Of a stretch of DNA of 64,000 nucleotides, positions 23,886 to 38,771 are shown piece after piece. The DNA is from Candidatus Woesearchaeota archaeon (GTDB taxonomy: Archaea; Nanobdellota; Nanobdellia; Pacearchaeales; GW2011-AR1). The DNA lies in assembly GCA_964406515.1 (NCBI GenBank), contig CAYORV010000001.1, positions 33,956 through 97,955 on the forward strand, read 5' to 3'. Each line of letters starts with the position of its first letter. Within the stretch, counting starts at the first letter, position 1. The notes under the pieces are model-generated. The model searched no databases. It saw nothing but the letters and a program-made list of their open reading frames with translations, and was not told where the DNA came from. The position numbers and the translations under genes were made by a program.

Positions 23886-24863
23886 ATGAGTGTAATTAAT
23901 TTAGAACAAGCGAGTAAGGGTTTGTTAGATTTTCACAATCATTCAACTTATTCTGATGGAGGAGATACTCCCTCACAACTTGTAGAAAGAGCAAAAGAAT
24001 ATGGAGTTAGTGCTATGGCATTAACAGACCATCATGTTATAGGTGGCTTACCTGAATTTAGAAATGCTTGTGAAGAATTAGATATTTTGGGTATTCCTTT
24101 TGGAACAGAAATTGGGGTAGAACTTCCTCAAGAGATTTTAGAGGAAGGAGATAATGATTCTCCAGACATGGTTATTTTAGGGAGAAATCCAAGAAATGTG
24201 GAAGCAAAAATACAAGAGTATCAAGCCATTTTACAAGAAGACAGAGCAAATAGATTTTTACCAGAAACTTTTGAAAGAATGATAGAAAGGGGGTTTGATA
24301 TTCCCAGATTACCTTCAGATATAAAAACTGCTAATCCTGAAAGGCTAAACGAGTTAACAGAAGATTTGAAAAGAAATATGGCCAAAGGAGAGAATCTTGG
24401 AAAATTAATTGATTATATTCATAGCGTTGATTCTTCTATTAGGAGAGAAGATATTGAAGAACAACCAGGGAAATATGCAAATAAATTTTTTGCCATAGGT
24501 CAACCAGGATATGTAAAAAGATTGGAAGGATTTAGTTTAAGTGACGCAAAGACTTTATCAGAGGCGATGAATTGTAAATTGGGCATCGCACATCCAGGAG
24601 GAGAATACGGATTCCTATCAGATTCAGTATTATATCATATGATTGAAAAAGGAACCCACATAATAGAAACCCGAAATTATTTTAACACTCCTGAGCAAAA
24701 TGTCAGGTTTGATAAGATAGCAGGCGAACATAATTTAACCAGGTCTGGTGGTTCAGATTGTCATGGGGATAATAGCCCATTTAAAATTGGCATGTATGAT
24801 CGTCCTCAAAATCAGGTTCCTAAAGAGGTTCTAGAAGAATTGTGGGAAAGTTTGCCTGAATAA
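23886..24863 (+). CDS. PHP-domain metal-dependent phosphoesterase
   Basis: 'LDFHNHSTYSDGGDTP...MALTDHH' PHP signature. Confidence 0.6.
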   Translation: MSVINLEQASKGLLDFHNHSTYSDGGDTPSQLVERAKEYGVSAMALTDHHVIGGLPEFRNACEELDILGIPFGTEIGVELPQEILEEGDNDSPDMVILGRNPRNVEAKIQEYQAILQEDRANRFLPETFERMIERGFDIPRLPSDIKTANPERLNELTEDLKRNMAKGENLGKLIDYIHSVDSSIRREDIEEQPGKYANKFFAIGQPGYVKRLEGFSLSDAKTLSEAMNCKLGIAHPGGEYGFLSDSVLYHMIEKGTHIIETRNYFNTPEQNVRFDKIAGEHNLTRSGGSDCHGDNSPFKIGMYDRPQNQVPKEVLEELWESLPE

Positions 24864-26933: not shown

Positions 26934-28016
26934 TCAAATAAAATTCACATCATCACCATAACAATCTATTGTTGAATTGATTAGAATATTTTTTGCATTA
27001 TTTGCACAATGATGCTTGCATTGTTCTTGAGGATTAAATGTTTCAAATATCTTTTTTGCTTCTTCGCTAAACCATAGCTCTTTGAAAGATTTATCTTTTA
27101 TTGAACCAAGAATTCCTGTTGATGAATAAGCTTTGTCATGACAAAAATAAACATTGCAATCAGCGCCAATCACAGGAACAGTCTGCATTATCCAACATCG
27201 ATTATAATTTCTTTCAGAAACACTTGCTCCTGAGAAGTCTCCTTCATATGTATCATAAACATTAAAACTTTCATCTTGGAATTCTTTTTTTGCTCTTTCA
27301 ATTTGTTCTAAAACTTGAGAATTTATTGGTGCATGATATTCTTTGAAATTCTGTATCCACATTGGAGTAATTTTTATATGGTTGCATCCCAAATCTTTAA
27401 AGTGTTTCACACTTCGATAAACTTGGTCAGCATTATCTTTATGGACGACAAAGTTTATTCCTAGTTCGCAGTTAGGGTCTTTTATTTGAGCAAATTTTCT
27501 TATGTTTTCTGTTAGCTTGTGAAACCATTCCTCAGGAACTCGTCTTATTTTTGAAAAAGATGCTGCATCACTTGCATCTGAAGATATTCTGACCCAATGC
27601 GCACGAGAAAGAATTTCTGCTTTTTTTCCTTCTAAACCTTGCCCGTTTGTTATAATTGATAGATTAATACCTGCATCAAGAATTTTCTGCATTGCTTCTT
27701 CAATATATGGATAAATCAAAGGTTCTCCTCCTCCAGAAAAAGTTACAGATTTAACTCCCATTTCTTTAAAGTCATTTATTATTTCCATTGTTTTTTCACG
27801 GGGAATTTCATCTAATCTATCTTTCATTTTATCCCTAACTTCTGTGTCCCCAGTATCAGGGGCATAAGAACAAAAAGCGCAATGATGATTACATCTATTG
27901 GTTGGTTTAAATCTAACATAAATTGGAGGAGTAATCTTTCCATCTACAAAAGATTTAAGTTTTTCATGATGCCAGAGAATCTTAAGCCCACCGTATCTTT
28001 GTTTTATTTCAGTCAT
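26934..28016 (-). CDS. Radical SAM enzyme with C-terminal SPASM/twitch-like Cys cluster
   Basis: 'KPTNRCNHHCAFCSY'. C-terminal 'CWIMQTVPVIGADCNVYFCHDK...CKHHCAN'. The ATG at 28016 (MTEIKQ) is preferred: it removes the overlap with the aminotransferase and sits ~25 bp downstream of a 'TTTATAAAtt' box. The track start is at 28079. Confidence 0.7.
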   Translation of the reverse strand: MTEIKQRYGGLKILWHHEKLKSFVDGKITPPIYVRFKPTNRCNHHCAFCSYAPDTGDTEVRDKMKDRLDEIPREKTMEIINDFKEMGVKSVTFSGGGEPLIYPYIEEAMQKILDAGINLSIITNGQGLEGKKAEILSRAHWVRISSDASDAASFSKIRRVPEEWFHKLTENIRKFAQIKDPNCELGINFVVHKDNADQVYRSVKHFKDLGCNHIKITPMWIQNFKEYHAPINSQVLEQIERAKKEFQDESFNVYDTYEGDFSGASVSERNYNRCWIMQTVPVIGADCNVYFCHDKAYSSTGILGSIKDKSFKELWFSEEAKKIFETFNPQEQCKHHCANNAKNILINSTIDCYGDDVNFI

Positions 28017-28050
28017 CTTATAAAAGGATAATTTTAATTTATAAATATTA

Positions 28051-29235
28051 TTATCTTTTTTCCCTATCTTCAAGAACATTCCTCATTCTTTCTATTCCTT
28101 TCTCAATATTCTTAATAGAATTAGCGTAACATAATCTAACATAACCTTCACCTTGTTCTCCAAAAAAATTCCCCGGGCATATAGCAACTCCTGCTTTTTC
28201 AAGCATAAGATCAGAAAATTCTCCACTTGTAAGTCCGGTCTCCTTTATATTTGGGAAAACATAAAACGCTCCTTTTGGATTTAAACAACTAATGCCGGGT
28301 AAACTATTTAATTTTTCAACAATAACATCTCTCCTTTTTCTAAATTCATCTATCATATCACTAATCGGTTCTTGACTGCCTTTCATAGCTTCTATTCCTG
28401 CCCTTTGTATGAATGGTGAAACGCATGAACTTGTTGTTTCAAGCAACAACCCCATTTTTTCAATTAAATCCGAAGGTCCTGTCACAGCTCCAAGACGCCA
28501 ACCAGTCATAGCATAAGTTTTGCTAAAAGCATGAACCACAATTGTTCTTTTTTTACATTGGTCATATTTGCTTGGAGAACAAAAATGAGTTTCTGAATCA
28601 GGATAAACCATTCTGCCATAAACTTCATCACTTAATAAGTATAAATCATATTTTTCAGCGATATTATAAATTCTTTCCATTTCTTTTTCTGTCATAACAG
28701 AACCTGTAGGATTGTGCGGGGAATTAATTATAATCATCCTTGTTTTATCTGTTATCATTTTTTCAACATCATCAGGATTTAATCTAAATTCATTTTTTTC
28801 ATAAAGAGGAATCTTTACTGGCTTAACTCCTAGAACTTTAAGTATTGAATTATATGAAACAAAACTGGGATCAGGAATAATAACTTCTTCCCCGGGATTT
28901 ACTGCACATGATACAGCATAATAAATTTGTATATTTGCTCCTGCAGTAACTAAAATTTGATTTAATTCAGGTTTAAATTTTCTAGACCTTTCTGTCATCT
29001 CTACTGCAATTTTTTTAAATTCTAATAACCCAGAAGAATTTGTATAATGGGTATCTCCTTTTTTTAAGGCTTCACAAGCAGCTTCAACAATACTTTTTGG
29101 AGTATCAAAATCAGGGTCCCCTATTTCAAAATGAATAATTTCCTTTCCTTGCCTTTCAAGCTCTTGAGCCTTGGCAAGTATTTGAAACATTTTTTGCCCT
29201 TCTATTTTATGTGCAACATCGGATAATCTTCTCAT
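28051..29235 (-). CDS. PLP-dependent aminotransferase, class I/II fold (AspAT family)
   Basis: 'AFSKTYAMTGWRLG' Lys motif, 'INSPHNPTG'. Confidence 0.75.
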   Translation of the reverse strand: MRRLSDVAHKIEGQKMFQILAKAQELERQGKEIIHFEIGDPDFDTPKSIVEAACEALKKGDTHYTNSSGLLEFKKIAVEMTERSRKFKPELNQILVTAGANIQIYYAVSCAVNPGEEVIIPDPSFVSYNSILKVLGVKPVKIPLYEKNEFRLNPDDVEKMITDKTRMIIINSPHNPTGSVMTEKEMERIYNIAEKYDLYLLSDEVYGRMVYPDSETHFCSPSKYDQCKKRTIVVHAFSKTYAMTGWRLGAVTGPSDLIEKMGLLLETTSSCVSPFIQRAGIEAMKGSQEPISDMIDEFRKRRDVIVEKLNSLPGISCLNPKGAFYVFPNIKETGLTSGEFSDLMLEKAGVAICPGNFFGEQGEGYVRLCYANSIKNIEKGIERMRNVLEDREKR

Positions 29236-29368
29236 TTTAATATAAAAGTTTAATGAAATTTGTATATAAATATTCCCTAAGATACCTCTTCATAATTTAG
29301 GTTATTGTAAGAAATAGCTATTAAAGATATATAAATTTTAAAAAGCTAGTAATTTTTATTATATTTCA

Positions 29369-30154
29369 ATGGATTTAGAGATAAAAAATAAAAAAGCCCT
29401 TGTGACTGGTGCAGGAAGAGGGCTTGGAAAATCAATAGCAATTAATTTAGCAAAAGAAGGGGTAAAAGTTGTAGTTGTATCTAGAACAGAATCTTATTTA
29501 AAAGAAGTTCTAGAAGAAATGGGTGGAGAAAACGAAGGGCATTATATGATTGTATGTGATTTAATGGGAGAAGGAGCACCACAAAAAGTTTTTGAAGAAA
29601 TTAAAGAAAAATTTGGAGAACCAGATATTTTAGTAAATAATTTAGGTGGAGTATTAGATATCAGAGACCCTTTTTGTTCATTAGATGATTGGAAGAAGAC
29701 CTATAGAATTAATTTGGAAGTTGCTATTGAGTTAAATAATTTAGTTATACCTTATATGGAAAGTAAAGGGTGGGGACGAATTGTTAATGTTTCTTCAACT
29801 GCAGGAATGGAAAATAATGGTCCAATAACTTACTGCACAATGAAAGCGGCTCTTACAGCATATACTCGATCTTTAGGAAGAGTTTTAGCAAAATCAGGGA
29901 TTGTGATGTCGGCTATTATGCCAGGAGCAGTCCTCACAAAAGGGGGCGATTGGGATAAAGTGTTGAAGGAAAGACCAGAACATGCAGAAAAATATCTAGC
30001 TGAAAGATGTCCTATGGGAAAATTTGGAGAACCCGATGATATAGGAACTATGGTAACCATATTATGCTCAAAACAAGCAAAATTTTGTCAGGGATCGATT
30101 TTTCCAGTAGATGGAGGACAAAGTAGACATTATTTTTGGACACGAGATGACTGA
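29369..30154 (+). CDS. Short-chain dehydrogenase/reductase (classical SDR)
   Basis: 'VTGAGRGLGKSIA', 'NVSSTAG', 'YCTMKAAL' (YxxxK). Confidence 0.75.
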   Translation: MDLEIKNKKALVTGAGRGLGKSIAINLAKEGVKVVVVSRTESYLKEVLEEMGGENEGHYMIVCDLMGEGAPQKVFEEIKEKFGEPDILVNNLGGVLDIRDPFCSLDDWKKTYRINLEVAIELNNLVIPYMESKGWGRIVNVSSTAGMENNGPITYCTMKAALTAYTRSLGRVLAKSGIVMSAIMPGAVLTKGGDWDKVLKERPEHAEKYLAERCPMGKFGEPDDIGTMVTILCSKQAKFCQGSIFPVDGGQSRHYFWTRDD

Positions 30155-30178
30155 AATTAAAAAACAAAACTAAACAAA

Positions 30179-31969
30179 ATGAAATTATCAGATTATGTTG
30201 CAGAATTTTTAGCTAAACAAGAAGTGAAACATGTATTTGGAATAACCGGAGGAGCAATAGTACATATTTTTGATTCTTTAGGAAAAAGAGAGGACATTTC
30301 ATATATTTGTCCACAGCATGAACAAGCAGCTGCAATGGCTGCAGATGCATATGCAAGAATTACAGGAAATTTAGGGGTGGCAATAGCTACAACAGGCCCA
30401 GGAGCAACAAATTTAATCACGGGAGTTGCTTGTGCTTATTTTGATTCTATCCCAACACTTTTCATAACAGGGCAAGTAGCAAGATTTAGATTAAATAAAG
30501 ATAAAAAAGCAAGACAAATCGGGTTTCAAGAAATTGATGTGGTAAGTATGTTTAAACCAATAACAAAATATGCTGTTCTTGTTGAAGATCCAAAAAAAAT
30601 AAGATATGAATTAGAAAAAGCAGTTTATTTGGCAAAATCTGGAAGGCCTGGTTCTGTATTAGTGGATATTCCAGATGATGTGCAAAGAGAAGAAATTAAT
30701 CCAGATGAATTATCCTCTTATGTTCCGGAAAAAGAAATTAGAAGTGATAAAGAATTAGATAGGCAAATTGAGGAATGTATCTCTTTAATTAAAAAAGCAA
30801 AAAGACCAATAATCATCCCGGGAGCAGGAGTTAAATTAGGGAAGGTTCAAGAAGAAACAAAAAAATTTATTGAGAAACTTAATTTTCCAGTTGCACTAAC
30901 CTGGGCAACACTAGATATGTATTCATATGATGACCCCATTAATGCTGGGGGTTTTGGAATAACTTCTCCAAGAACAGGAAATTTCGCTGTACAGAATTCA
31001 GATTTAATTATTGCACTTGGTTCAAAATTAGATACGCACCATACAGGAACTCCAATAAATACTTTTGCACGAGAAGCCAAAAAAATAGTTTTAGACATTG
31101 ATAAAAGTGAATTAGATAAATTTGAAAAGTATGGTGTGGAAGTTGATATTTTAATTAACTCGGATATTAAACCTTTCATAAATAAAATAAATGAAAAAAT
31201 AGAAAATATAGAAACACAAGATGTTTCTGAATGGATTAAAAAAATAGGAGAATGGAAAGAAAAATACAAGGCATACCAAAAAAAAGACTTTGATATAGAA
31301 GATTCTCTCGATGCTTATATTTTCTTAGATGAACTATCAGAACAATCTTCTGAAGGAGATATAATTATCCCTGATGCTGGGGGGAATTTAACTCAAACTT
31401 TTGCAGGATATAGACCAAAACAAAACCAAACAATCTTCAGCGCTTTTAATAATTCTCCAATGGGTTATTCACTTCCTGCAAGTATTGGGGCTTGTTTTGC
31501 AAATGAGAAGAAACAAGTAATTTGTATAATTGGTGATGGAGGAATCCAAATGAATATACAAGAATTAGCAACTATTGTCAAACATAAATTGCCAATAAAA
31601 ATCTTTGTTTTTAACAATAAAGGGTATGGTATGATAAAACAAACCCAAGATGATTGGCTTAGTTCAAATTATCAAGCATCTTCTACTGAAGGGGGAGTAG
31701 CAATACCTAATTTTGTAGAAATTGCAAACGCTTATGGATTAAAAACAGAAAAAATATCTAATTATCAAGAATTAAAATCAAAGATGAGGGCTATTTTAGA
31801 TAGTGAAGAAGCTATCCTTTGCGACGTCAATATTTCGAAAGATCAAAGAACAATACCAATGCTAAAATTTGGGAGACCTATAGAAGATTCAAAACCCCTA
31901 TTAGATAGAAAAGAATTTCTTGAAAACATGATTGTTAAACCTTTAGATGCTTCTTTAGAAGAAGAGTAA
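30179..31969 (+). CDS. Thiamine-diphosphate enzyme of the acetolactate-synthase/YerE-like family
   Basis: N-terminal 'HVFGITGGAI...AAAMAADAYAR' pyrimidine domain. 'IGDGGIQMNIQELATIV...FVFNNKGYGMI' GDG-x(24-27)-NN TPP motif. Confidence 0.75.
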   Translation: MKLSDYVAEFLAKQEVKHVFGITGGAIVHIFDSLGKREDISYICPQHEQAAAMAADAYARITGNLGVAIATTGPGATNLITGVACAYFDSIPTLFITGQVARFRLNKDKKARQIGFQEIDVVSMFKPITKYAVLVEDPKKIRYELEKAVYLAKSGRPGSVLVDIPDDVQREEINPDELSSYVPEKEIRSDKELDRQIEECISLIKKAKRPIIIPGAGVKLGKVQEETKKFIEKLNFPVALTWATLDMYSYDDPINAGGFGITSPRTGNFAVQNSDLIIALGSKLDTHHTGTPINTFAREAKKIVLDIDKSELDKFEKYGVEVDILINSDIKPFINKINEKIENIETQDVSEWIKKIGEWKEKYKAYQKKDFDIEDSLDAYIFLDELSEQSSEGDIIIPDAGGNLTQTFAGYRPKQNQTIFSAFNNSPMGYSLPASIGACFANEKKQVICIIGDGGIQMNIQELATIVKHKLPIKIFVFNNKGYGMIKQTQDDWLSSNYQASSTEGGVAIPNFVEIANAYGLKTEKISNYQELKSKMRAILDSEEAILCDVNISKDQRTIPMLKFGRPIEDSKPLLDRKEFLENMIVKPLDASLEEE

Positions 31970-31980
31970 GTTAATTCAAA

Positions 31981-32637
31981 ATGACAGAAATAAACTTGAT
32001 GGAGAGATATCCTCAAACTAAAAGAAATTTGAGTGAAAGGAGTCAAGAAAAAACAGAAGAAGACAGGGTTATTGCAGGGAAATTTGGGAAAGAATACTTT
32101 GATGGCGATAGAAAATATGGTTATGGGGGCTATAGTTATCATCCAAGATTTTTTTCTGAAGTTGTGGAGGATATGGTAAGACATTATGGACTTTCTGAGG
32201 GAAGCAAAATTCTTGATGTGGGATGTGCTAAAGGATTTATGTTACATGATTTTAAGAGATTGCATCCTGAAATAATTGTGAGAGGTATTGATATTTCTGA
32301 GTATTCTATTGAAAATTCTAAGCCAGAAGTTAGAGAATTTTTAAGTGTCGGAAATGCAAGAGATTTGAGTGAATTTGGAGATGATGAATTTAATTTAGTA
32401 ATCTCAATAAATACTATTCATAATCTTCCTTTAGAAGAATGTAAGCAAGCACTTAAAGAAATTCAAAGAGTTGGAAAAAATTCATTCATTACAGTTGATG
32501 CGTGGAGGGATGATGCTGGAAAAGAAGACATGAATACTTGGAATTTGACAGCAAAAACATTCATGCAAGTAGATGATTGGAAAAATTTATTTGATGGGGT
32601 AGGATATACTGGAGATTATTATTGGTTTATTCCCTGA
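31981..32637 (+). CDS. Class I SAM-dependent methyltransferase
   Basis: 'KILDVGCAKGFMLHD' motif I. Confidence 0.6.
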   Translation: MTEINLMERYPQTKRNLSERSQEKTEEDRVIAGKFGKEYFDGDRKYGYGGYSYHPRFFSEVVEDMVRHYGLSEGSKILDVGCAKGFMLHDFKRLHPEIIVRGIDISEYSIENSKPEVREFLSVGNARDLSEFGDDEFNLVISINTIHNLPLEECKQALKEIQRVGKNSFITVDAWRDDAGKEDMNTWNLTAKTFMQVDDWKNLFDGVGYTGDYYWFIP

Positions 32638-32677
32638 TTTTCATAAGGAATGACAAAAAATAATTTTACTAGTCTTA

Positions 32678-32697
32678 CTACATAAATCTTTATAAAT
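32678..32697 (+). promoter_or_regulatory. BRE/TATA-like promoter (ctacataaatcTTTATAAAt)
   Basis: ~21 bp upstream of the ATG at 32717. Confidence 0.5.
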
Positions 32698-32716
32698 TAA
32701 ATTAATAATAAAATTT

Positions 32717-33331
32717 ATGGAAAAAGAAGAGTTAATCAGCTTTACAAAAGAGATAGAAGAATTGTGGAATCAAGCAAAAATAAGAGCCCCTATTCATCTT
32801 TCTGGAGGAAACGAGGAACAATTAATTGAACTTTTTAGAGAAATAAAAAAGGGGGATTATATTTTTTCAACTTGGCGTTCTCATTACCATTATCTTTTAG
32901 CTGGAGGCTCTAAAGAAAAACTTAAACAAATGATTTTAGATGGGCATAGCATGCATATTAATGATAAAGAATTAAATTTTATTACTTCTTCAATTGTCGC
33001 AGGAACTCCGCCAATAGCTGCAGGAGTTGCCCTTGCTTTGAAAAAGAAAGGGAGCGACAAGCATGTTTGGTGCTTTATAGGGGATGGTGCAGAAGATGAA
33101 GGACATGTATATGAAGCAATACGATATGTGGATGGGCATAATTTACCTTGTACTTTTGTAATAGAGGATAATAATCGGGCTGTTGAAACACCCAAAAATG
33201 AAAGATATGGGAGTTCAGAAATGCCTTGGCCCAAATGTGTAAAAAGATATCATTATGTTCCAACTTATCCTCATTTAGATAATGGAGCATGGGTTAATTT
33301 TTCAGGTCAAAAAGCAGGAGGCTTATTATGA
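32717..33331 (+). CDS. TPP-binding alpha subunit of a split E1/transketolase-like enzyme
   Basis: 'CFIGDGAEDEGHVYEAIRYVDGHNLPCTFVIEDNNRAVETP' GDG-x(25)-NN motif. Only 204 aa. Confidence 0.55.
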   Translation: MEKEELISFTKEIEELWNQAKIRAPIHLSGGNEEQLIELFREIKKGDYIFSTWRSHYHYLLAGGSKEKLKQMILDGHSMHINDKELNFITSSIVAGTPPIAAGVALALKKKGSDKHVWCFIGDGAEDEGHVYEAIRYVDGHNLPCTFVIEDNNRAVETPKNERYGSSEMPWPKCVKRYHYVPTYPHLDNGAWVNFSGQKAGGLL

Positions 33332-34872
33332 AATATAAAGATGCTTTAATAAAATCTATGAATATGCTTGCAGAAGATAAAAATACAATTTTTTTAGGAT
33401 ATAATCTTAATTTTGGTACAAAATGTTATGGTACCTTGGAAGGAATTTCTAATGAACAAAGGTTGGAAACACCTTTGGCAGAAAATTTAATGACAGGCCT
33501 ATGTACAGGATTAGCATTAGAAGGATTTAGACCAGTTTTATTTTTTGAAAGGCATGATTATATTTTACTGGCCCTTGATGCCATAGTAAATCATTTAGGC
33601 AAATTAAAGGAAATGACTAATGGACAATTCAAAGCTCCAGTTATAATTAGAGCAACAGTAGGTTCTTCAAAACCAATTCATCCAGGCCCTCAACATATAC
33701 AAGATTTTTCAGAAGAATTAAAGAAAATGATATCTTTTCCAGTTTATGAACCAAAAAATTCACAAGAAGTATTAGACGTTTATGAAAAAATAAAAAACAT
33801 TGAAACTCCTGTATTAATTCTAGAAAGAAAAGAACTGTATGGGCAAGATACATCTGTATCTGGTGAAGAAAAAGAAATTAAACAAAAAGTTTTAGTTACA
33901 GGAGGAGCAGGTTATGTTGGAAGTGTTTTAGTTCCAAATCTTTTAGAAAAAGGCTATGAAGTCAGGGTTTTAGATTCTATGCTTTTTAGCTCACAAGGTT
34001 TAGATTCTGTAAAAGATAAATGTGAAATTGTGGAAGGAGATATAAGAGATTATAATTTGGTAGAAAAATGTTTAGAAGATATAGATTTTGTTATTCATCT
34101 TGCAGCAATTTCTAATGACCCTTGTTCTGATTTAGATCCAGAACTAACAAAGCAAGTTAATTTTGAAGCCACTAAAAATTTAGTTAAATTATCAAAAGAA
34201 AAAAAGGTTAAAAGATTTATTTATGCGTCAAGTAGCAGTGTTTATGGAATCAAACAAGATCCAAATGTTACAGAAGATCTACCTTTAGATCCCTTGACAA
34301 TTTATTCTAAAACAAAAGAATGGTCAGAACAGGTTGTAAGGCAAAGCAATGATAATGACTTTACAGCAGTAGTTCTAAGACCTGCTACAGTTTGTGGATA
34401 TTCTCCAAGAATGCGTTTGGATTTAACAGTAAATATTCTAACAGACCATGCAATTAACAAGGGAAAAATAACAGTTTTTGGAGGATCTCAAAAAAGGCCA
34501 AATATCCATATAGAAGATATAACTAATTATTACATAGAATTATTAAAAATTCCTAAAGAGAAAATAGCTGGAGAAACATTTAATGCAGGCTATGAAAACC
34601 ACACAGTTATTGAAATTGCAGAAATGATAAAAGAAATTATTGGAAACAACGTGACAATTGAGAGAACAGAATCAGATGATTTAAGATCTTATCATATTTC
34701 CTCTGAAAAAATAAAAAAGATGTTAGGTTTAGCTCCAAAAAAGACAATAAAAGATGCGGTAAGTGATTTGAAAATTGCTTTTGAAAAAGGACTTATCCCA
34801 AACCCCTTAGACTCTAATTATAAAAATATTGAAAAAATGAAAGAGATTGGGATAGAAAATTTAACAGAATAA
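33328..34872 (+). CDS. Fusion of an E1-beta/transketolase pyrimidine-binding domain (N-terminal) with an NAD-dependent sugar epimerase/dehydratase (C-terminal)
   Basis: 'ETPLAENLMTGLCTGLALEGFRPVL' (E1beta-like), then 'VLVTGGAGYVGSVLVPNLLEKGYEVRVLD' and 'YSKTKEWSE' (YxxxK). ATGA overlap with the alpha gene. Confidence 0.6.
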   Translation: MKYKDALIKSMNMLAEDKNTIFLGYNLNFGTKCYGTLEGISNEQRLETPLAENLMTGLCTGLALEGFRPVLFFERHDYILLALDAIVNHLGKLKEMTNGQFKAPVIIRATVGSSKPIHPGPQHIQDFSEELKKMISFPVYEPKNSQEVLDVYEKIKNIETPVLILERKELYGQDTSVSGEEKEIKQKVLVTGGAGYVGSVLVPNLLEKGYEVRVLDSMLFSSQGLDSVKDKCEIVEGDIRDYNLVEKCLEDIDFVIHLAAISNDPCSDLDPELTKQVNFEATKNLVKLSKEKKVKRFIYASSSSVYGIKQDPNVTEDLPLDPLTIYSKTKEWSEQVVRQSNDNDFTAVVLRPATVCGYSPRMRLDLTVNILTDHAINKGKITVFGGSQKRPNIHIEDITNYYIELLKIPKEKIAGETFNAGYENHTVIEIAEMIKEIIGNNVTIERTESDDLRSYHISSEKIKKMLGLAPKKTIKDAVSDLKIAFEKGLIPNPLDSNYKNIEKMKEIGIENLTE

Positions 34873-35314: not shown

Positions 35315-36505
35315 ATGAAAGAGGAGTTAAATAAGAAACAAATTGTGTTCATTGAACCAAAACCAACTGTGACTATGTATCGTGTAGCGAGGAGCTTAAA
35401 ACAAACAGGAAAATATGAAACGATTCTTTTTTCTTTTTCTGAACTTGATAGAGAATTTTATGAAAAAGCTTATGATAAAATTTTTATTTTAGATTTAAGT
35501 CATAAAATTAAAACCAAAGATTTATTTGATTTTTCTAAAAGGATATTAAATGGGAAAGTTAAATCATTTCTTGAAAAAATAAAGAAAATGAGGCCATATC
35601 TTTTTAATATTACTGGACCAGATTTATTCGTTTTTATGGCAATGTCTTCTTTGATAAAAAATCCGAGTCCAAAGATTTATTATCCTAATGATATTTGGGG
35701 GGCACTTAAAAAAAATTACTTTTTTACAAAAGAATTTTGGATAAAGGGGGAATTTCAAAAATTCTTTGAAAAGATTTGTTTTAAAATGGCTGATGGAGTT
35801 CTAAATAAAGGAGCTCCACAACACTTAGATTTGTTGAATTATAGTATAAGTGTTCCAAGGATGGCCCTTCCTTCTTATTGCCTTGATGCTTGGATGTTTC
35901 CTCCAAGAAAAAAGAAAAATAAAGAGATTCATGTTGCTTTTGGGGCGAGCCCAGCACATCCATTATTCTTGGGTGAATTGTCCCACATAGAAATTATAAA
36001 AACCATCACTTCACAGAAGATTCACCTTCATACATATGGGCCTTGTTTTGATGAAAAAGAAAATAAAATCTTTGTTAAAGAATCAAAAAAGAACAAATAT
36101 TATCATTTTCATGGGCTAGTAAAACCTGGTGTGTTAAATAAAGAAATGTCAAAATACAATTATGGTATTTTTTTATTCTTTATGGATCCTGTAAAGGGAA
36201 TCCCATTCACAAAATTAGCAAAACCCATGCTTAATTCAAAGATGATAAACTATCTTGAATCAGGATTGCCAATAATTATAAACAAACAATATGAATATAT
36301 GGCTGGAATAATTGAAAAACATGGTCTAGGGTTGGCAATAGATGCTGAAGATTTAAAAAATCTCAGGAAGATTCTGGAACAAAAAGATTATTCTCAATTT
36401 CAAAAAAATATTAAAAAGTTTCAAAAAGAATTTTGCTTGAGTAAAAAAATAAAAGAAATAGAAGCATTTTATGATAAGATTGTGAAAATTAAAACTCCTT
36501 CTTGA
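35315..36505 (+). CDS. Hypothetical protein, possible GT-B-fold glycosyltransferase-like
   Basis: C-terminal 'KMINYLESGLPIIINK...GLGLAID' resembles the GT-B nucleotide-sugar-binding half. Weak. Confidence 0.3.
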   Translation: MKEELNKKQIVFIEPKPTVTMYRVARSLKQTGKYETILFSFSELDREFYEKAYDKIFILDLSHKIKTKDLFDFSKRILNGKVKSFLEKIKKMRPYLFNITGPDLFVFMAMSSLIKNPSPKIYYPNDIWGALKKNYFFTKEFWIKGEFQKFFEKICFKMADGVLNKGAPQHLDLLNYSISVPRMALPSYCLDAWMFPPRKKKNKEIHVAFGASPAHPLFLGELSHIEIIKTITSQKIHLHTYGPCFDEKENKIFVKESKKNKYYHFHGLVKPGVLNKEMSKYNYGIFLFFMDPVKGIPFTKLAKPMLNSKMINYLESGLPIIINKQYEYMAGIIEKHGLGLAIDAEDLKNLRKILEQKDYSQFQKNIKKFQKEFCLSKKIKEIEAFYDKIVKIKTPS

Positions 36506-36560: not shown

Positions 36561-38771
36561 ATGGAAATCTTGGATAATTTCTCCGACAAAAATTATACAA
36601 CTAGGGAAACATGTAGGGTTTGTGGTTCAGAAAATTTAACTCCTCTTTTTTCATTAGGAGATTTATATATTTCTACTTTTGTTAAAAATCCTTACGAGAG
36701 CATTGGAAAGGCTCCTCTTGAATTAGTATGGTGTGAAAATTGTACATTAGTACAGCTTAAGCATACTGCACCCCAAGAACTTATGTATTCAAAGCATTAT
36801 TGGTATCATTCTAAATTAAATAAGGTTATTGTAGAGGATTTAAGAGAAATAACAGAGATTGCTAATAAAATGGTTGACCTAAAAGAAGGAGATGTTATTC
36901 TTGACATTGGAGCGAATGACGGAACATTGTTGAGTTTTTATCCTTCAAGATACCTTCGAGTTGGATGTGAACCTGCAACAAATTTAATTGAAGATATGAG
37001 AAAACATTGTAATATTGCGATGAATGACTTCTGGACTTATGAGAATTACAAAAATGCTGTTGGAGAAAGAAAAGCAAAAATAATTACTGCTATTGGAATG
37101 TTTTATGATATGGAGGATCCAAATCAGTTTATCCGTGATTCTGCCGAGGCACTTGAAGAAGATGGTGTTTTTATTGCTCAATTGATGACTTCAAAAAAAA
37201 TGTTAGAACAAAATGATATAGGGAATATTTGCCATGAGCATATTGAATATTATTCTTACGAGTCTCTTAAATATCTTTTTGAAAAAAATGGTTTAGAAAT
37301 ATTTAAGGTTGAAGAAAATGCGATTAATGGAGGAAGTTATAGATTGTTTGCAAGAAAATACAAAACAGGAAGTGTTCATTATCCTGAAAACATAACTAAA
37401 GAAAATTATTTAGATTTTGCCAAGAAAATAGAAGAAAACAGACAAAATTGTTTGAATTTACTCAATGAACTCAATAAGCAAGGTAAAAAAATCTATGGTT
37501 ATGGAGCCTCTACAAAAGGGAATACAATTCTCCAATATTATGGTATAGGTACTGGTTTGATTAAAGGAATTGCAGAAATAAGTGAAGAAAAATTTGGCAA
37601 ATATACTGTTGGATCAGGAATTCCAATAATTGAGGAAAAAGAAGCAAAAAAAGATGCAGATTATTTTTTAATCTTGCCTTATGCATTTAGAGATTCTTTT
37701 ATTGAAAAAGAGCAGGAATGGATTAAGAATGGAGGAAAATTTATTTTTGCTTTGCCAGAAGTAGAAATTTATCCTAAGGAAGATTTTGAAAAAAAGAAAA
37801 AAGCTTTAATTTTGGGAATTACTGGGCAGGATGGAAGTTATCTTGCAGAATTTCTTTTAGAAAAAGGATATGAAGTTCATGGGATGATAAGAAAATCTGC
37901 TACAGGAAATACAAAAAATATAAAGCATATTATGGGCAAGATTGTTCTGCATAAGGGGAACTTAACAGACCCTGTTTCAATTTATAAAATCATTGATGAC
38001 GTTAGACCTGAAGAGATTTATAATGAAGCCGATCAAGATCACGTAAGTTGGAGTTTTGATATGGCAGGTTATAGTTATGATGTTACAGGGGCTGCTGTTG
38101 GGAGAATTCTTGAAATAATAAAACAAATTAATCCTAAAATAAAATATTTTCAACCTTTATCATCAAATATTTTTGGAATTCCTGAAGAGACACCCCAGAC
38201 AGAAGAAACTAATGTAAGGCCTCAGAGCCCATATGCTTGTGGAAAAGTGTTAGCCCAAGTTTTGTGTAAATATTATCGGGATGTTTATGGTATGTTTATT
38301 TCTACTGCAATTTTCTACAATCACGAATCTCCAAGAAGAACAGAAGATTATGTGACACATAAAATTACTAAAGCTGCTGTTAAAATCTCAAAAGGATTGC
38401 AAAAAAAATTATCTTTGGGAGATTTATCGACAAGGGTTGATTTTGGTTATGCTCCAGAATACATGGAAGCTGCATGGAATATGATGCAATTAGATAAACC
38501 AGATGATTTTATTATATGTACTGGCGAGACCCATACTGTTCAAGAATTTTTGCAAGAAGCATTTAAAGAAGTGGGATTAAATGCGGATGATTATGTTGAG
38601 TATGACAAACAATTTGAAAGGCCTGGAAAAACAGGAGATCTGATTGGAGATTATTCTAAAGCAAATAGGGCTTTTGGATTTACTCCACGAACTAAATTTA
38701 AAGAGATTGTAAGGATGTTAATTAAAAATGATTTAAAGGAAGTTGAGAGGGAAATGCAGGAAAATGATTGA
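36561..38771 (+). CDS. Fusion of an NDP-hexose C-methyltransferase (TylC3/TcaB9-like, N-terminal Zn ribbon) with a GDP-mannose 4,6-dehydratase
   Basis: N-term 'CRVCGS...CENCTLVQL' Cys4 ribbon plus 'LDIGANDGTLL' MTase. C-term '[31 protein letters not shown]', 'YNEADQDHV', 'PYACGK' (GMD/SDR). Confidence 0.7.
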   Translation: MEILDNFSDKNYTTRETCRVCGSENLTPLFSLGDLYISTFVKNPYESIGKAPLELVWCENCTLVQLKHTAPQELMYSKHYWYHSKLNKVIVEDLREITEIANKMVDLKEGDVILDIGANDGTLLSFYPSRYLRVGCEPATNLIEDMRKHCNIAMNDFWTYENYKNAVGERKAKIITAIGMFYDMEDPNQFIRDSAEALEEDGVFIAQLMTSKKMLEQNDIGNICHEHIEYYSYESLKYLFEKNGLEIFKVEENAINGGSYRLFARKYKTGSVHYPENITKENYLDFAKKIEENRQNCLNLLNELNKQGKKIYGYGASTKGNTILQYYGIGTGLIKGIAEISEEKFGKYTVGSGIPIIEEKEAKKDADYFLILPYAFRDSFIEKEQEWIKNGGKFIFALPEVEIYPKEDFEKKKKALILGITGQDGSYLAEFLLEKGYEVHGMIRKSATGNTKNIKHIMGKIVLHKGNLTDPVSIYKIIDDVRPEEIYNEADQDHVSWSFDMAGYSYDVTGAAVGRILEIIKQINPKIKYFQPLSSNIFGIPEETPQTEETNVRPQSPYACGKVLAQVLCKYYRDVYGMFISTAIFYNHESPRRTEDYVTHKITKAAVKISKGLQKKLSLGDLSTRVDFGYAPEYMEAAWNMMQLDKPDDFIICTGETHTVQEFLQEAFKEVGLNADDYVEYDKQFERPGKTGDLIGDYSKANRAFGFTPRTKFKEIVRMLIKNDLKEVEREMQEND

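What the first reader, a model, noticed from the sequence alone, without database searches (positions are those of the whole stretch)
28051..34872. Two distinct TPP-dependent carboligase systems (ALS/YerE-like plus split E1alpha/E1beta fused to an SDR epimerase) in a sugar-nucleotide context
An acetolactate-synthase-family enzyme (30179..31969) and a split transketolase/E1-type pair (32717..33331 alpha; 33328..34872 beta fused to an NAD-epimerase/dehydratase) lie between an aminotransferase, an SDR and a methyltransferase. YerE-type ALS homologs and E1alpha/beta pairs (avilamycin AviB1/B2-type) are the known routes for adding two-carbon branches to NDP-ketosugars. The fusion of the beta subunit to an SDR that would generate or consume the keto-sugar is a direct architectural hint of such chemistry.
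Basis: inference. Interest (0 to 1): 0.55.

Follow-up and report, generated by a model that had tools for sequence, protein, structure and literature searches.

The report
Mini thiamine enzymes for branched sugars
A surface-sugar gene island of an uncultured low-GC microbe carries two thiamine-dependent carbon-carbon bond-forming enzymes. One is a previously undescribed stripped-down, two-piece type welded to a sugar-oxidising enzyme, and it most likely builds unusual branched sugars.

Summary

- **ALS-like ORF (30179-31969).** It is not an acetolactate synthase by NCBI's curated thresholds. Its closest solved relative is JanthE, a YerE-like enzyme that accepts ketones.
- **The "E1" pair.** It is a minimal ThDP enzyme. 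Alpha is 204 aa and contains only the PP domain. Beta is only the ~173-aa PYR domain, with no Transketolase_C domain. No E2 or E3 gene lies in the 64 kb window.
- **The fused SDR.** The PYR domain is fused to an extended SDR. Its best sequence and structural match is Cj1427, a GDP-heptose C4-dehydrogenase.

The main new results come from related loci.

- The mini alpha/beta family is large (DPANN archaea, Omnitrophica, Desulfobacterales, one Prochlorococcus cell) and sat in a glycan locus in every member locus I inspected.
- The same SDR is also fused to an unrelated, transketolase-type PYR domain. This points to two independent fusions.
- Mini-beta and ALS-like homologs are each also found fused to radical-SAM/SPASM enzymes. 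One of these is a 53%-identical counterpart of window gene 26934-28079.

Best reading: a ketone-generating oxidoreductase plus a ThDP carboligase that makes C-branched NDP-sugars, probably heptoses. The function is inferred, not shown. I class it as a new variant of a known kind.

The parts
23043..23810 (+). Hypothetical 255-aa protein that co-occurs with the ALS-type module
   Evidence: No Pfam or NCBIfam hit. A 32%-identical homolog lies next to the PHP gene and the ALS-rSAM fusion in L059.
23886..24863 (+). PHP-domain phosphoesterase that co-occurs with the ALS-like enzyme
   Evidence: Pfam PHP. Counterparts of 49% identity in L004 and 54% in L059, both loci with an ALS-like gene.
26934..28079 (-). 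Radical-SAM/SPASM enzyme, conserved partner of the mini-E1/SDR module. The true start is probably the internal Met22.
   Evidence: - Pfam Radical_SAM plus SPASM.
- CX3CX2C at C63/C67/C70, plus a C-terminal Cys cluster.
- Counterparts of 49-59% identity in L004, L005, L007, L012, L014 and L018.
- A 53%-identical counterpart is fused to a mini-beta in P0252/L057.
- More distant relatives (23-28% identity) are fused to ALS-like enzymes.
- Best structural neighbours are DesII, viperin and BlsE, from a weak model (pLDDT 69).
28051..29235 (-). Class I/II (AspAT-type) PLP aminotransferase belonging to the ALS-type module
   Evidence: Aminotran_1_2, 232 bits. A 73%-identical counterpart in L059 is fused to an N-terminal extended SDR and sits directly upstream of an ALS-rSAM/SPASM fusion.
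29369..30154 (+). Classical (FabG-like) SDR, candidate ketoreductase for the acyl branch
   Evidence: adh_short, 149 bits. It lies 24 nt upstream of the ALS-like gene. Classical SDRs of only 28-30% identity flank alpha/beta in L014, L018 and L057.
30179..31969 (+). ALS-family, YerE/JanthE-like ThDP (and probably FAD) carboligase
   Evidence: - TPP_enzyme_N/M/C.
- Below all AHAS curated cut-offs, for example 444 against 538 for TIGR00118.
- Best PDB hit is 8rph = JanthE at 1e-100, then 5ahk, then AHAS.
- AHAS Trp574 is replaced, and the motif MIKQTQ is shared with JanthE's MIKHTQ.
- Homologs of 55-71% identity occur in uncultured archaea and bacteria; 6 of the top 120 are fused to rSAM/SPASM.
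31981..32637 (+). Class I SAM methyltransferase, conserved member of the mini-E1/SDR module
   Evidence: Methyltransf_31/11/25. Counterparts of 35-69% identity in L004, L005, L007, L012 and L057.
32717..33331 (+). Mini-E1 alpha: ThDP/Mg-binding PP domain only (204 aa)
   Evidence: - E1_dh profile positions 7-176 of 300.
- Human PDH E1 alpha at 1.1e-12, residues 53-208 of 365.
- Invariant GDG...EDN.
- The family has at least 1327 clusters, with lengths of 203-241 aa.
33328..33846 (+). Mini-E1 beta: PYR domain (residues 1-173) of the fusion protein
   Evidence: - PDH E1 beta model positions 7-190 of 327.
- Solved E1 beta chains at about 1e-12.
- Invariant catalytic Glu52.
- Stand-alone betas of 164-190 aa end exactly where this domain ends.
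- AF2 predicts a folded domain, then a disordered linker at 174-182.
33886..34872 (+). Extended-SDR domain (residues 187-514), Cj1427-like NDP-sugar C4 oxidoreductase
   Evidence: - phmmer hit to 6vo6 at 1.7e-45.
- Foldseek top hits 6vo6/6vo8 = Cj1427: 36% identity, TM 0.87-0.91.
- Next best are C4-epimerases, including the GDP-sugar 4-epimerase 8rdg.
- Shared signature SPRMRLDLxVN.
- Invariant Y326 and K330.
35315..36505 (+). Gtf3_C-like glycosyltransferase that co-occurs with the module
   Evidence: Precomputed Pfam PF26337. Homologs of 52-61% identity in L012 and L014, and 26-33% in L004, L010, L017, L018, L020 and L059.
36561..38771 (+). Context only: fusion of a C-methyltransferase (Methyltransf_13/23/14) with a GDP-mannose 4,6-dehydratase-like domain. 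This is a second "keto-sugar generator plus C-branching enzyme" fusion in the same operon.
   Evidence: Pfam and NCBIfam.

Best explanation
The region encodes two ThDP-dependent acyloin-type carboligase modules. They add carbon branches to nucleotide-activated keto-sugars destined for a cell-surface glycan. The sugars are most likely heptose- or mannose-derived and GDP- or ADP-linked.

**Module 2** consists of rSAM/SPASM 26934-28079, methyltransferase 31981-32637, alpha 32717-33331, beta-SDR 33328-34872 and glycosyltransferase 35315-36505.

1. The Cj1427-like SDR domain oxidises a ring hydroxyl, probably C4-OH, of the NDP-sugar to a ketone.
2. The minimal alpha/beta ThDP enzyme has its PP domain on alpha and its PYR domain on the N-terminus of the fusion protein. 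By analogy with E1, it probably assembles as alpha2beta2. It decarboxylates a 2-oxo acid, most simply pyruvate, to the hydroxyalkyl-ThDP carbanion. It then adds this carbanion to the ketone, giving a C-acyl tertiary alcohol.
3. The methyltransferase, a ketoreductase and the radical-SAM/SPASM enzyme tailor the product or prepare the substrate. The glycosyltransferase then transfers it.

The fusion places the generator of a labile keto-sugar next to the enzyme that consumes it. A redox-neutral cycle is possible, in which SDR-bound NADH reduces the new branch carbonyl. That step is pure speculation.

**Module 1** consists of hypothetical protein 23043-23810, PHP 23886-24863, aminotransferase 28051-29235, SDR 29369-30154 and the ALS-like enzyme 30179-31969. 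It does analogous chemistry with a YerE/JanthE-type enzyme. Reduction and/or transamination would follow.

**What is shown:** the domain architecture, the motifs, the homology relations, the gene-fusion and neighbourhood pattern, and the absence of dehydrogenase-complex features.

**What is inferred:** every substrate, the regiochemistry and the order of steps.
For: 1. **Architecture excludes a dehydrogenase complex.** Alpha covers only E1_dh positions 7-176 of 300. Beta lacks Transketolase_C. All stand-alone family betas are 164-190 aa. No lipoyl/E2/E3 domain was found in the >=100-aa ORFs I scanned, which cover all large non-overlapping ORFs of the window.
2. **ThDP catalytic residues are invariant**.
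3. **The SDR is closest to Cj1427** by sequence and by structure. Cj1427 is a net GDP-heptose C4-dehydrogenase (PMC10680097). The next neighbours are C4-epimerases that act through a 4-keto intermediate.
4. **A free ortholog feeds a C4 aminotransferase.** In L014 a free 76%-identical SDR overlaps by 4 bp a DegT gene whose best models are all C4-aminotransferases.
5. **Gene fusions link the components (Rosetta-stone pattern).**
   - The same SDR (66-78% identity) is fused to an E1-beta-type PYR domain with an E1-alpha-type partner.
   - It is also fused to a TK/DXS-type PYR domain (<=30% identity) with a transketolase-N-type partner.
   - Mini-beta is fused to rSAM/SPASM.
   - Alpha and beta occur as a single chain, overlapped upstream by a Zn-ADH gene, in Prochlorococcus.
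   - ALS-like enzymes are fused to rSAM/SPASM.
   - The aminotransferase ortholog is fused to an extended SDR.
   - In each case a ThDP enzyme is tied to an enzyme that can make or consume a carbonyl.
6. **The context is a glycan locus in every member locus I inspected, often heptose-flavoured.**
   - GmhA-like, two HddA-like kinases, HAD, nucleotidyltransferases, two RfaE-domain-II-like genes and a GT9 in the window.
   - HldE-like genes in L007, L016, L023 and L059.
   - GT9 genes in L014, L015 and L017.
7. **Precedent.** All three ThDP superfamilies seen here (DC/YerE-like, E1-type alphaKADH2, TK) are the ones known or proposed to branch keto-sugars (PMC12247030; PMC4753412).
8. **The ALS-like enzyme is nearest to JanthE** and fails the AHAS cut-offs.
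Against: - No biochemical or genetic data exist for any family member.
- The relation of the mini-E1 to AviB1/B2, Pau11/12 or KbDH was not tested.
- The mini alpha lacks half of a normal E1 alpha, so the active-site entrance and the acceptor cannot be extrapolated.
- The most conserved partner, rSAM/SPASM, has no role in the YerE/AviB paradigm. Most mini-E1 loci lack the Cj1427-like SDR, so the SDR is an accessory rather than the core partner.
- The SDR could act after the ThDP step, as a reductase, rather than before it.
- The heptose-pathway genes all score below their curated equivalog cut-offs.
- The JanthE-over-AHAS margin is real but modest (341 against 283 bits), and PpYerE (293 bits) is barely above AHAS.
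- The aminotransferase is of the amino-acid class.
Confidence: 0.55

Rival explanations
1. **ThDP/radical-SAM hybrid chemistry.** The radical-SAM/SPASM partner abstracts a hydrogen from an unactivated sugar carbon. The resulting radical is then coupled to, or electron-exchanged with, the ThDP-bound enamine, in a PFOR-like one-electron step through the auxiliary Fe-S clusters. The branch would be installed by radical acylation rather than by polar addition to a ketone.
For: - An rSAM/SPASM gene is adjacent to the mini alpha/beta genes in L015, L016, L018-L021 and to the TK-type alpha gene in L007, and is fused to mini-beta in L057.
- Independent fusions of rSAM/SPASM to two unrelated ThDP superfamilies: mini-beta (P0252) and ALS-like (six clusters).
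- Most mini-E1 loci have no Cj1427-like SDR that could make a ketone.
Against: - No natural precedent.
- Fusions are equally explained if the rSAM enzyme simply makes the keto-sugar. Its best structural neighbours, DesII and viperin, do radical eliminations that end in carbonyls.
- In Prochlorococcus the partner is a Zn-ADH and there is no rSAM gene, although the contig is only 6.5 kb.
- In the window the SDR fusion points to ordinary ketone chemistry.
Confidence: 0.12
2. **Transketolase/DXS-like chain extension or cleavage.** The ThDP enzyme transfers a two-carbon unit to a sugar aldehyde, making an octose or nonose (higher-carbon sugar). Alternatively it uses the keto-sugar itself as donor and cleaves next to the carbonyl. 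Either way it would not make a tertiary-alcohol branch.
For: - Type-B relatives are genuinely TK/DXS-like: 195-209 bits to a transketolase model for alpha, and TK/DXS-only hits for the PYR domain.
- DXS condenses pyruvate with an aldehyde.
- The loci are rich in enzymes for long or heavily modified sugars: B12-rSAM methylases and heptose genes.
Against: - The fused SDR's nearest relatives all oxidise C4, a secondary alcohol, giving a ketone and not an aldehyde.
- The free SDR pairs with a C4-type aminotransferase.
- The window pair is E1-like, not TK-like.
Confidence: 0.12
3. **Supplier of a small substituent.** The mini-E1 is a plain 2-oxo-acid decarboxylase or acyloin synthase. It makes a small aldehyde or acyloin, for example for an ether, acetal or acyl substituent. 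The fused SDR and the neighbouring reductases act on that small molecule, not on the sugar ring.
For: - Minimal PP+PYR ThDP enzymes such as sulfopyruvate and phosphonopyruvate decarboxylases are simple decarboxylases (my own knowledge).
- The window already shows this logic in its phosphonate cassette: Ppd-like 53635-54756 followed by Fe-ADH 54753-55856.
- Oxidoreductases of three different families sit next to the mini-E1.
Against: - The fused SDR is an extended, NDP-sugar-type SDR with the full C-terminal substrate domain. It superposes on Cj1427 at TM about 0.9.
- The pair is E1-type, not DC-type.
- The precedent for E1-type enzymes in sugar loci is branching.
Confidence: 0.12
4. **Ordinary central metabolism.** The alpha/beta pair is the E1 of a pyruvate, acetoin or branched-chain 2-oxo-acid dehydrogenase complex, and the ALS-like gene is a biosynthetic acetolactate synthase.
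For: Best Pfam and NCBIfam names are E1_dh, PDH E1 beta and acetolactate synthase large subunit. Some source annotations say the same.
Against: - All curated cut-offs are missed by wide margins: alpha 93 against 394; ALS 444 against 538, and 413 against 738.
- There is no beta C-terminal domain and no C-terminal half of alpha. No E2/E3, ilvN/C/D was found in the >=100-aa ORFs I scanned (all large non-overlapping ORFs of the 64 kb).
- Both enzymes are fused to SDR or rSAM domains, and every member locus I inspected was a glycan locus.
Confidence: 0.02

Closest known systems
YerE-like ThDP/FAD carboligases of the decarboxylase superfamily (YpYerE, PpYerE, ErwE, JanthE, MMAR_2332)
   Same: - ORF 30179-31969 has the same three-domain architecture, catalytic Glu and GDG-NN motif.
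- JanthE (8rph) is its best solved relative at 1e-100.
- It sits in a surface-glycan locus with keto-sugar-forming enzymes and an adjacent reductase, as YerE does with YerF.
   Different: - Only moderately related to the characterised members.
- Close homologs occur as fusions to radical-SAM/SPASM domains, which has not been described for YerE-like enzymes.
- Associated with an AspAT-class aminotransferase and a PHP phosphoesterase.
- Hosts are DPANN archaea and candidate phyla, not Proteobacteria or Mycobacteria.
E1-type (alphaKADH2) sugar-branching pairs of actinomycete antibiotic clusters (AviB1/AviB2, Pau11/Pau12, aldgamycin pair, KbDH-alpha/beta)
   Same: Adjacent alpha (PP) and beta (PYR) genes of E1 ancestry, inside a deoxy/keto-sugar pathway. 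Pyruvate-derived C2 branching is the proposed chemistry.
   Different: - As far as I know, those pairs have full-length E1 alpha and E1 beta architecture. I could not check their sequences.
- Here alpha is 204 aa, and beta is a 173-aa PYR domain without Transketolase_C.
- Beta is fused to an SDR, or elsewhere to rSAM/SPASM or to alpha.
- The context is a surface glycan of uncultured archaea and bacteria, not a secondary metabolite.
- Phylogenetic relation untested.
Transketolase-type enzymes proposed for hydroxyacetyl branching in miharamycin/amipurimycin
   Same: The type-B relatives of the window fusion (P0007, P0017, P0039, P0041 with their TK-N-like partners) are TK/DXS-like and tied to a keto-sugar-forming SDR.
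   Different: - They are split, lack the TK C-terminal domain, and are fused to the SDR.
- The window's own pair is E1-like, not TK-like.
[quoted passage not shown]
   Same: - The SDR domain is 36% identical to it, and it is the best sequence and structural match.
- Shared SPRMRLDLxVN signature and catalytic Tyr/Lys.
- GDP-heptose-type pathway genes lie in the same window.
   Different: - Cj1427 is a free-standing enzyme that recycles its tightly bound NADH with 2-oxoglutarate and hands the product to epimerases and reductases.
- Here the domain is covalently linked to half of a ThDP active site.
- Substrate, nucleotide and cofactor recycling are unknown.
Heterotetrameric E1 of pyruvate / branched-chain 2-oxo-acid / acetoin dehydrogenase complexes
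   Same: Evolutionary origin of both subunits. ThDP motif and catalytic Glu conserved. Split alpha/beta organisation.
   Different: - Lacks the alpha C-terminal half. From my own knowledge, that half carries the His and loops used for reductive acylation of lipoamide.
- Lacks the beta C-terminal domain.
- No E2/E3 partners found in the window.
Radical-SAM enzymes acting on (nucleotide) sugars: DesII, viperin, BlsE, BtrN, AprD4
   Same: - The partner 26934-28079 has the CX3CX2C motif plus a C-terminal Cys-rich auxiliary-cluster domain.
- DesII, viperin and BlsE are its top structural matches.
- Several of these enzymes generate keto or deoxy-keto products.
   Different: Only 14-20% identity, and the model is of modest confidence. 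Nothing is known about its reaction. Fusion to ThDP enzymes has no precedent.

Membership tests
2-oxo-acid dehydrogenase complex E1 (PDH/BCKDH/acetoin DH), heterotetrameric type | ThDP-binding GDG...N(N) motif in alpha and catalytic Glu in the beta PYR domain | tested here: met
   GDG122-124...EDN150-152 is invariant in 19 alphas. A-E52-[NS]-L-M is invariant in 15 betas.
2-oxo-acid dehydrogenase complex E1 (PDH/BCKDH/acetoin DH), heterotetrameric type | Full-length alpha (~320-400 aa), including the C-terminal half | tested here: not met
   Alpha is 204 aa. It matches E1_dh positions 7-176 of 300, and human E1 alpha residues 53-208 of 365. Family members are 203-241 aa.
2-oxo-acid dehydrogenase complex E1 (PDH/BCKDH/acetoin DH), heterotetrameric type | Beta carries the Transketolase_C (E2-binding) domain | tested here: not met
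   - The PYR domain ends at ~173 and is followed by a linker and the SDR.
- Stand-alone betas are 164-190 aa.
- The first hits with Transketolase_C rank around 104 at 36% identity and form a separate clade.
2-oxo-acid dehydrogenase complex E1 (PDH/BCKDH/acetoin DH), heterotetrameric type | Accompanied by E2 (lipoyl/2-oxoacid_dh) and E3 genes | tested here: not met
   None found in the >=100-aa ORFs I scanned, which cover all large non-overlapping ORFs of the 64 kb window, nor in more than 15 related loci. The rest of the genome was not seen.
E1-type (alphaKADH2) keto-sugar branching enzymes (AviB1/B2 type) | Adjacent E1 alpha-like and E1 beta-like genes inside an NDP-sugar modification locus with a keto-sugar-forming enzyme | tested here: met
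   4-bp overlap of alpha and beta. Fused Cj1427-like SDR. Whole-window glycan island.
E1-type (alphaKADH2) keto-sugar branching enzymes (AviB1/B2 type) | Groups phylogenetically with AviB1/B2, Pau11/12, aldgamycin and kibdelomycin pairs | not tested
Only the separation from canonical Transketolase_C-containing E1 beta representatives was shown.
E1-type (alphaKADH2) keto-sugar branching enzymes (AviB1/B2 type) | Pyruvate-dependent carboligation onto a ketone acceptor | not testable with these tools
   Requires an enzyme assay.
YerE-like carboligases (DC superfamily) | TPP_enzyme_N/M/C architecture with catalytic Glu and GDG-NN motif | tested here: met
   (HEQ at 46-48; GDG...NN).
YerE-like carboligases (DC superfamily) | Closer to characterised YerE-like enzymes than to AHAS, and not an AHAS by curated thresholds | tested here: met
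   - JanthE 341 bits, then 5ahk 293 bits, then AHAS 283 bits. I believe 5ahk is PpYerE, from my own knowledge.
- TIGR00118 scores 444 against a cut-off of 538, and all other AHAS models are far below cut-off.
- AHAS Trp574 is replaced by Thr, as in JanthE.
- The margin over AHAS is modest, and no tree was built.
YerE-like carboligases (DC superfamily) | Located in a glycan locus, without the AHAS small subunit or ilvC/ilvD | tested here: met
   Window scans. Homologous loci L004 and L059.
YerE-like carboligases (DC superfamily) | Accepts an NDP-keto-sugar as acceptor | not testable with these tools
   Requires an enzyme assay.
Cj1427-type NDP-sugar C4-dehydrogenases (extended SDR) | Extended SDR with GxxGxxG, a catalytic Ser/Thr-Tyr-Lys triad and a C-terminal NDP-sugar-binding domain | tested here: met
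   GGAGYVG; Y326 and K330 invariant; a Ser run at 301-304. The full-length superposition on 6vo6/6vo8 gives TM 0.87-0.91.
Cj1427-type NDP-sugar C4-dehydrogenases (extended SDR) | Cj1427 is the nearest characterised relative | tested here: met
   phmmer 1.7e-45 against 2.5e-33 for the next hit. Foldseek ranks 1-6.
Cj1427-type NDP-sugar C4-dehydrogenases (extended SDR) | Releases the 4-keto product (net dehydrogenase) rather than re-reducing it (epimerase) | tested here: inconclusive
   The evidence is only contextual. A free ortholog overlaps a C4-type aminotransferase gene in L014, and the domain is fused to ThDP enzymes. The next-best relatives are epimerases.
Cj1427-type NDP-sugar C4-dehydrogenases (extended SDR) | GDP-D-glycero-D-manno-heptose supply genes in the locus | tested here: inconclusive
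   GmhA-like, two HddA-like, HAD and NTP-transferase genes at 6684-10871. All have the heptose-pathway model as their best hit, except the NTP-transferase 6684-7430, whose HddC hit is only sixth. All score below the curated cut-offs.

The most novel reading that the evidence does not exclude
The recurrent fusion and adjacency of radical-SAM/SPASM enzymes with ThDP enzymes marks a natural ThDP/radical-SAM two-component catalyst. The pattern holds for two unrelated superfamilies, mini-E1 and ALS-like. In this reading a 5'-deoxyadenosyl-generated sugar radical is acylated through a ThDP-derived ketyl/enamine radical. That would be enzymatic radical acylation of an unactivated C-H, a reaction so far known only from engineered ThDP enzymes (my own knowledge).
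Probability: 0.12. Interest if true: 0.9.

Novelty: new variant of a known kind. Interest (0 to 1): 0.66.

Why it matters
**For ThDP enzymology.**
- Only three ThDP superfamilies are known or proposed to use ketones as acceptors. No structure exists for the E1-type or TK-type sugar branchers (PMC12247030).
- Here is a large, highly conserved family of at least 1300 sequence clusters of the smallest conceivable E1-type enzyme (about 205 plus 175 aa). It is naturally tethered to its presumed substrate-generating enzyme.
- That makes it an attractive system for structure determination, mechanism and biocatalysis of chiral tertiary alcohols.

**For glycobiology.**
- The cell surfaces of DPANN archaea, Omnitrophica and similar uncultured lineages, and at least one Prochlorococcus cell, probably carry C-branched or otherwise exotic heptose-type sugars that nobody has seen chemically.

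**For enzyme discovery.**
- The repeated coupling to radical-SAM/SPASM enzymes is unexplained. It could reveal either a new route to keto-sugars in anaerobes or new radical/ThDP chemistry.

Tried and rejected
1. **PDH/acetoin-DH E1 and true AHAS.** Rejected on missing domains, missed curated cut-offs, no E2/E3 or ilv genes, and the fusions.
2. **Sulfopyruvate- or phosphonopyruvate-decarboxylase-type split enzyme.** Rejected, because those belong to the TPP_enzyme_N/C fold family. The window has its own Ppd-like gene (53635-54756) next to a PEP mutase. The pair here is E1-type.
3. **Fusion as an assembly or frameshift artefact.** Rejected, because nine 90%-identity clusters from independent assemblies carry it.
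4. **Obligatory coupling of the two ThDP systems.** Rejected. An ALS-like gene accompanies the mini-E1 only in the window and L004, and occurs without it in L059.
5. **Organism identification.** This failed. The homologs' hosts suggest a DPANN archaeon or a candidate-phylum bacterium.
Only partly done, with PDB bit-score ranking, NCBIfam models and a rough NJ tree of PYR domains without support values. The AviB-type sequences were unobtainable. Three cited papers (PMC7509852, PMC7500870, PMC544256) were not held.
7. **Structure-based guess at the rSAM reaction.** The model was weak (pLDDT 69) and the hits generic (DesII, viperin, BlsE, anSME). I treat this as a hint only.
8. **Literature search for a described ThDP plus rSAM/SPASM sugar system.** It found nothing relevant.

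Full report
**1.

The window is about 31% G+C. Over its whole 64 kb it is one glycan-biosynthesis island. Its contents are:
- glycosyltransferases of several families, a Wzx-like flippase and a PMT_2 GT-C;
- five B12-radical-SAM enzymes and three radical-SAM/SPASM enzymes;
- GDP-mannose dehydratases, a DegT aminotransferase and a NUDIX hydrolase;
- heptose-type genes and a phosphonate cassette.

- Genes 29369-38771 are co-directional, with gaps of -4 to 79 nt.
- Alpha (32717-33331) and beta-SDR (33328-34872) overlap in ATGA, behind a GGAGG.

**2. The ALS-like enzyme (30179-31969)**

- It has the TPP_enzyme_N/M/C architecture, the catalytic Glu and a canonical GDG-x27-NN motif.
- It misses every curated AHAS threshold. 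Examples are 444 against 538 bits for TIGR00118, and 413 against 738 for NF006524.
- Its best solved relative is 8rph (1e-100, 341 bits). This is JanthE, a YerE-like aldehyde-ketone carboligase.
- Next come 5ahk (293 bits), which I believe is PpYerE from my own knowledge, and plant AHAS (283 bits).
- The herbicide-site Trp574 of AHAS is Thr here, and the motif MIKQTQ matches JanthE's MIKHTQ.
- No AHAS small subunit or ilvC/ilvD was found in the window.

I therefore file it as YerE/JanthE-like. The margin over AHAS is modest and no tree was built.

**3. The "E1" pair is a minimal ThDP enzyme**

*Alpha.*
- It is 204 aa and matches only positions 7-176 of the 300-position E1_dh profile. On human PDH E1 alpha it covers residues 53-208 of 365.
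- The ThDP/Mg motif GDG...EDN and several family-specific motifs (HLSGGNE, RSHYHYL) are invariant in 19 diverse homologs.

*Beta.*
- It is the first ~173 residues of the 514-aa protein.
- It matches the PYR domain of PDH E1 beta (model positions 7-190 of 327; solved E1 beta chains at about 1e-12). It does not match TK or DXS models.
- The catalytic Glu, in A-E52-N-L-M, is invariant.
- There is no Transketolase_C domain. The AF2 model (pLDDT 83.9) shows a folded PYR domain, a disordered linker at 174-182, and then the SDR.

No lipoyl, E2 or E3 domain was found in the >=100-aa ORFs I scanned, which cover all large non-overlapping ORFs of the window. A dehydrogenase-complex role is excluded as far as sequence can show.

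**4. The fused SDR**

- Residues 187-514 form an extended SDR with GxxGxxG, Tyr326 and Lys330.
- The best sequence hit is 6vo6 (1.7e-45).
- The top six structural hits are 6vo6/6vo8, at 36% identity and TM 0.87-0.91 normalised to the target. These entries are Cj1427.
- The two proteins share the unusual signature SPRMRLDLxVN.
- The next neighbours are C4-epimerases, including the GDP-sugar 4-epimerase PhGal4E_1.

**5. What related sequences add**

*(a) The mini-alpha family is large and tightly conserved.*
- At least 1327 clusters score E <= 1e-3. The top 120 are 63-92% identical and 203-241 aa long.
- Named sources include Nanoarchaeota/Pacearchaeota, Omnitrophica and Phycisphaerae.
- A scan of species-representative genomes added Deltaproteobacteria/Desulfobacterales MAGs and a Prochlorococcus single-cell genome.

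*(b) Alpha is normally followed by a stand-alone PYR-only beta.*
- These betas are 170-179 aa (L014-L022).
- A search of 1.84 billion representatives with the beta domain found 560 hits at E <= 1e-10.
- Nearly all top hits are 164-190 aa. Canonical E1 beta proteins with Transketolase_C appear only from about rank 104. They form a separate clade in a rough NJ tree.

*(c) Fusions of beta are informative.*
- Beta-SDR fusions are rare: nine 90%-identity clusters.
- They come in two kinds:

| Feature | Type A (P0001-P0005) | Type B (P0007, P0017, P0039, P0041) |
|---|---|---|
| PYR domain | E1-beta-like | matches only TK/DXS models; <=30% identical to type A |
| Alpha partner | 204-aa E1-alpha-like | 244-248 aa, transketolase-N-like (195-209 bits) |
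| SDR identity to the window's SDR | 71-84% | 66-78% |

- So a ThDP PYR subunit has been joined to this same SDR at least twice, from two different ThDP superfamilies.
- The best beta hit in the representative library, P0252, is beta fused to a radical-SAM/SPASM domain.
- That rSAM part is 53% identical to window gene 26934-28079. The next gene is a methyltransferase 46% identical to window 31981-32637.
- In Prochlorococcus L023, alpha and beta form one 399-aa chain. A Zn-dependent alcohol dehydrogenase gene overlaps it upstream. It lies beside HldE, GmhB-like and SDR genes.

*(d) Neighbourhood.*
- An rSAM/SPASM gene directly flanks the mini alpha/beta genes in L015, L016 and L018-L021, and the TK-type alpha gene in L007.
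- The 49-59%-identical counterpart of 26934-28079 occurs in every locus that has this SDR, namely L004, L005, L007, L012 and L014, and also in L018.

*(e) A free SDR ortholog.* In L014 a 76%-identical free SDR overlaps by 4 bp a DegT gene whose best models are all C4-aminotransferases.

*(f) The ALS-like enzyme has its own conserved set.*
- Six of its top 120 homologs (55-59% identity, 954-973 aa) carry a C-terminal Radical_SAM+SPASM domain.
- That domain is related to 26934-28079 at 23-28% identity, with E from 1e-26 to 1e-40.
- In L059 such a fusion is preceded by three genes:
  - a 676-aa extended-SDR/aminotransferase fusion, whose aminotransferase half is 73% identical to window 28051-29235;
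  - a PHP protein (54% identical to 23886-24863);
  - a homolog of 23043-23810.

**6. Synthesis**

| Module | Genes |
|---|---|
| M1 | 23043-23810, PHP 23886-24863, aminotransferase 28051-29235, SDR 29369-30154, ALS-like 30179-31969 |
| M2 | rSAM/SPASM 26934-28079, methyltransferase 31981-32637, alpha, beta-SDR, glycosyltransferase 35315-36505 |

The two modules are not obligatorily linked. An ALS-like gene accompanies the mini-E1 only in the window and L004.

The common denominator of all the fusions is a ThDP enzyme joined to an enzyme that makes or uses a carbonyl on a nucleotide sugar. The partners are an NAD-dependent SDR, a radical-SAM/SPASM enzyme, a Zn-ADH and an SDR-aminotransferase.

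All three ThDP superfamilies seen here are exactly those known or proposed to branch keto-sugars (PMC12247030; PMC4753412). The most economical model is therefore ketone generation followed by ThDP-dependent acyl-anion addition, then reduction, methylation or transamination, and glycosyl transfer.

Heptose is the leading candidate scaffold. Three lines of evidence point to it:
- The SDR's relative Cj1427 acts on GDP-heptose.
- The window holds GmhA-like, HddA-like, HAD and RfaE-domain-II-like genes, a nucleotidyltransferase and a GT9. All score below the curated cut-offs.
- HldE-like or GT9 genes recur in the related loci.

A second fusion in the same operon follows the same design. It joins a C-methyltransferase to a GDP-mannose 4,6-dehydratase-like domain (36561-38771).

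**7. What remains open**

- Nothing here is biochemical.
- The role of the radical-SAM/SPASM partner is the main unexplained feature. Its best structural neighbours, from a weak model, are DesII, viperin and BlsE. That fits a radical route to keto or deoxy-keto sugars. It does not exclude a genuinely new ThDP/radical mechanism.
- The relation to AviB1/B2-type enzymes is untested.
- The host organism is unidentified.

**8. Verdict**

It is strengthened in its core idea and corrected in its details.
- The system is a new architectural variant of ThDP-dependent sugar-branching machinery. It belongs to a large uncharacterised family in uncultured archaea and bacteria.
- A literature search found no description of it.

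Noticed in passing
window 36561-38771 (+): A 736-aa fusion. The N-terminal part is a TylC3-type sugar C-methyltransferase (Methyltransf_13/23/14). The C-terminal part is a GDP-mannose 4,6-dehydratase-like domain (328 bits, below the 415 cut-off). It is a second "keto-sugar generator plus C-branching enzyme" fusion in the same operon.
   Followed up: partly
window 52196-57235 (+): Phosphonate cassette:
- a cytidylyltransferase-PEP mutase fusion (52196-53638);
- a phosphonopyruvate-decarboxylase-like ThDP enzyme (53635-54756), the third ThDP system in the window;
- an Fe-ADH (54753-55856);
- a phosphodiesterase-family protein (55856-57235).

This suggests a hydroxyethylphosphonate-type decoration of the glycan.
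   Followed up: partly
window 47385-48830 (-) and 49101-50531 (-): Two sulfatase-family genes sit inside the glycan island. One of the radical-SAM/SPASM genes in the window could in principle be their anaerobic maturase rather than a sugar enzyme.
   Followed up: no
window 13484-15022, 19138-20784, 25482-26909, 44894-47083, 50899-52317: Five B12-binding radical-SAM enzymes in one 64-kb locus. There are also three radical-SAM/SPASM genes (4643-5671, 17990-19129, 26934-28079) and one more radical-SAM gene (17020-18018). This is an unusually radical-SAM-rich glycan pathway.
   Followed up: no
window ~32435 (within the methyltransferase gene 31981-32637): The JGI contig Ga0208769_1000002 (L001) has a 1-bp deletion relative to the window (TTTAGAAGAATG in the window, TTTAGAGAATG in L001). 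This splits the methyltransferase gene into 183-aa and 35-aa calls. It is either an assembly error or natural variation.
   Followed up: partly
window 24927-25301 (+): A 124-aa ORF that matches only the C-terminal part of a Glycos_transf_1 domain. It is probably a remnant or truncated glycosyltransferase gene.
   Followed up: no
L023 2630-3829 (Prochlorococcus sp. AG-402-G19): A single-chain alpha-beta mini-E1 of 399 aa, 46-48% identical to the window proteins, in a marine cyanobacterial single-cell genome. It is overlapped upstream by a Zn-ADH gene and lies next to an ADP-heptose cassette (HldE, GmhB-like, SDR).
   Followed up: partly
L059 7400-9430: A 676-aa fusion of an extended SDR with a class I/II (AspAT-type) aminotransferase. 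The aminotransferase half is 73% identical to window 28051-29235. This implies that an amino-acid-class aminotransferase has been recruited to nucleotide-sugar chemistry.
   Followed up: partly
L012 1014-5648 (-): A 1544-aa protein combining B12-binding/radical-SAM, an Epimerase-type SDR, and a second B12-binding/radical-SAM unit. It lies next to the free Cj1427-like SDR. This is another large fusion in the same kind of pathway.
   Followed up: no
window 34913-35311, 39224-40102, 214-1416: Three ORFs (132, 292 and 400 aa) with no Pfam or NCBIfam match and no homolog in the related loci examined.
   Followed up: no
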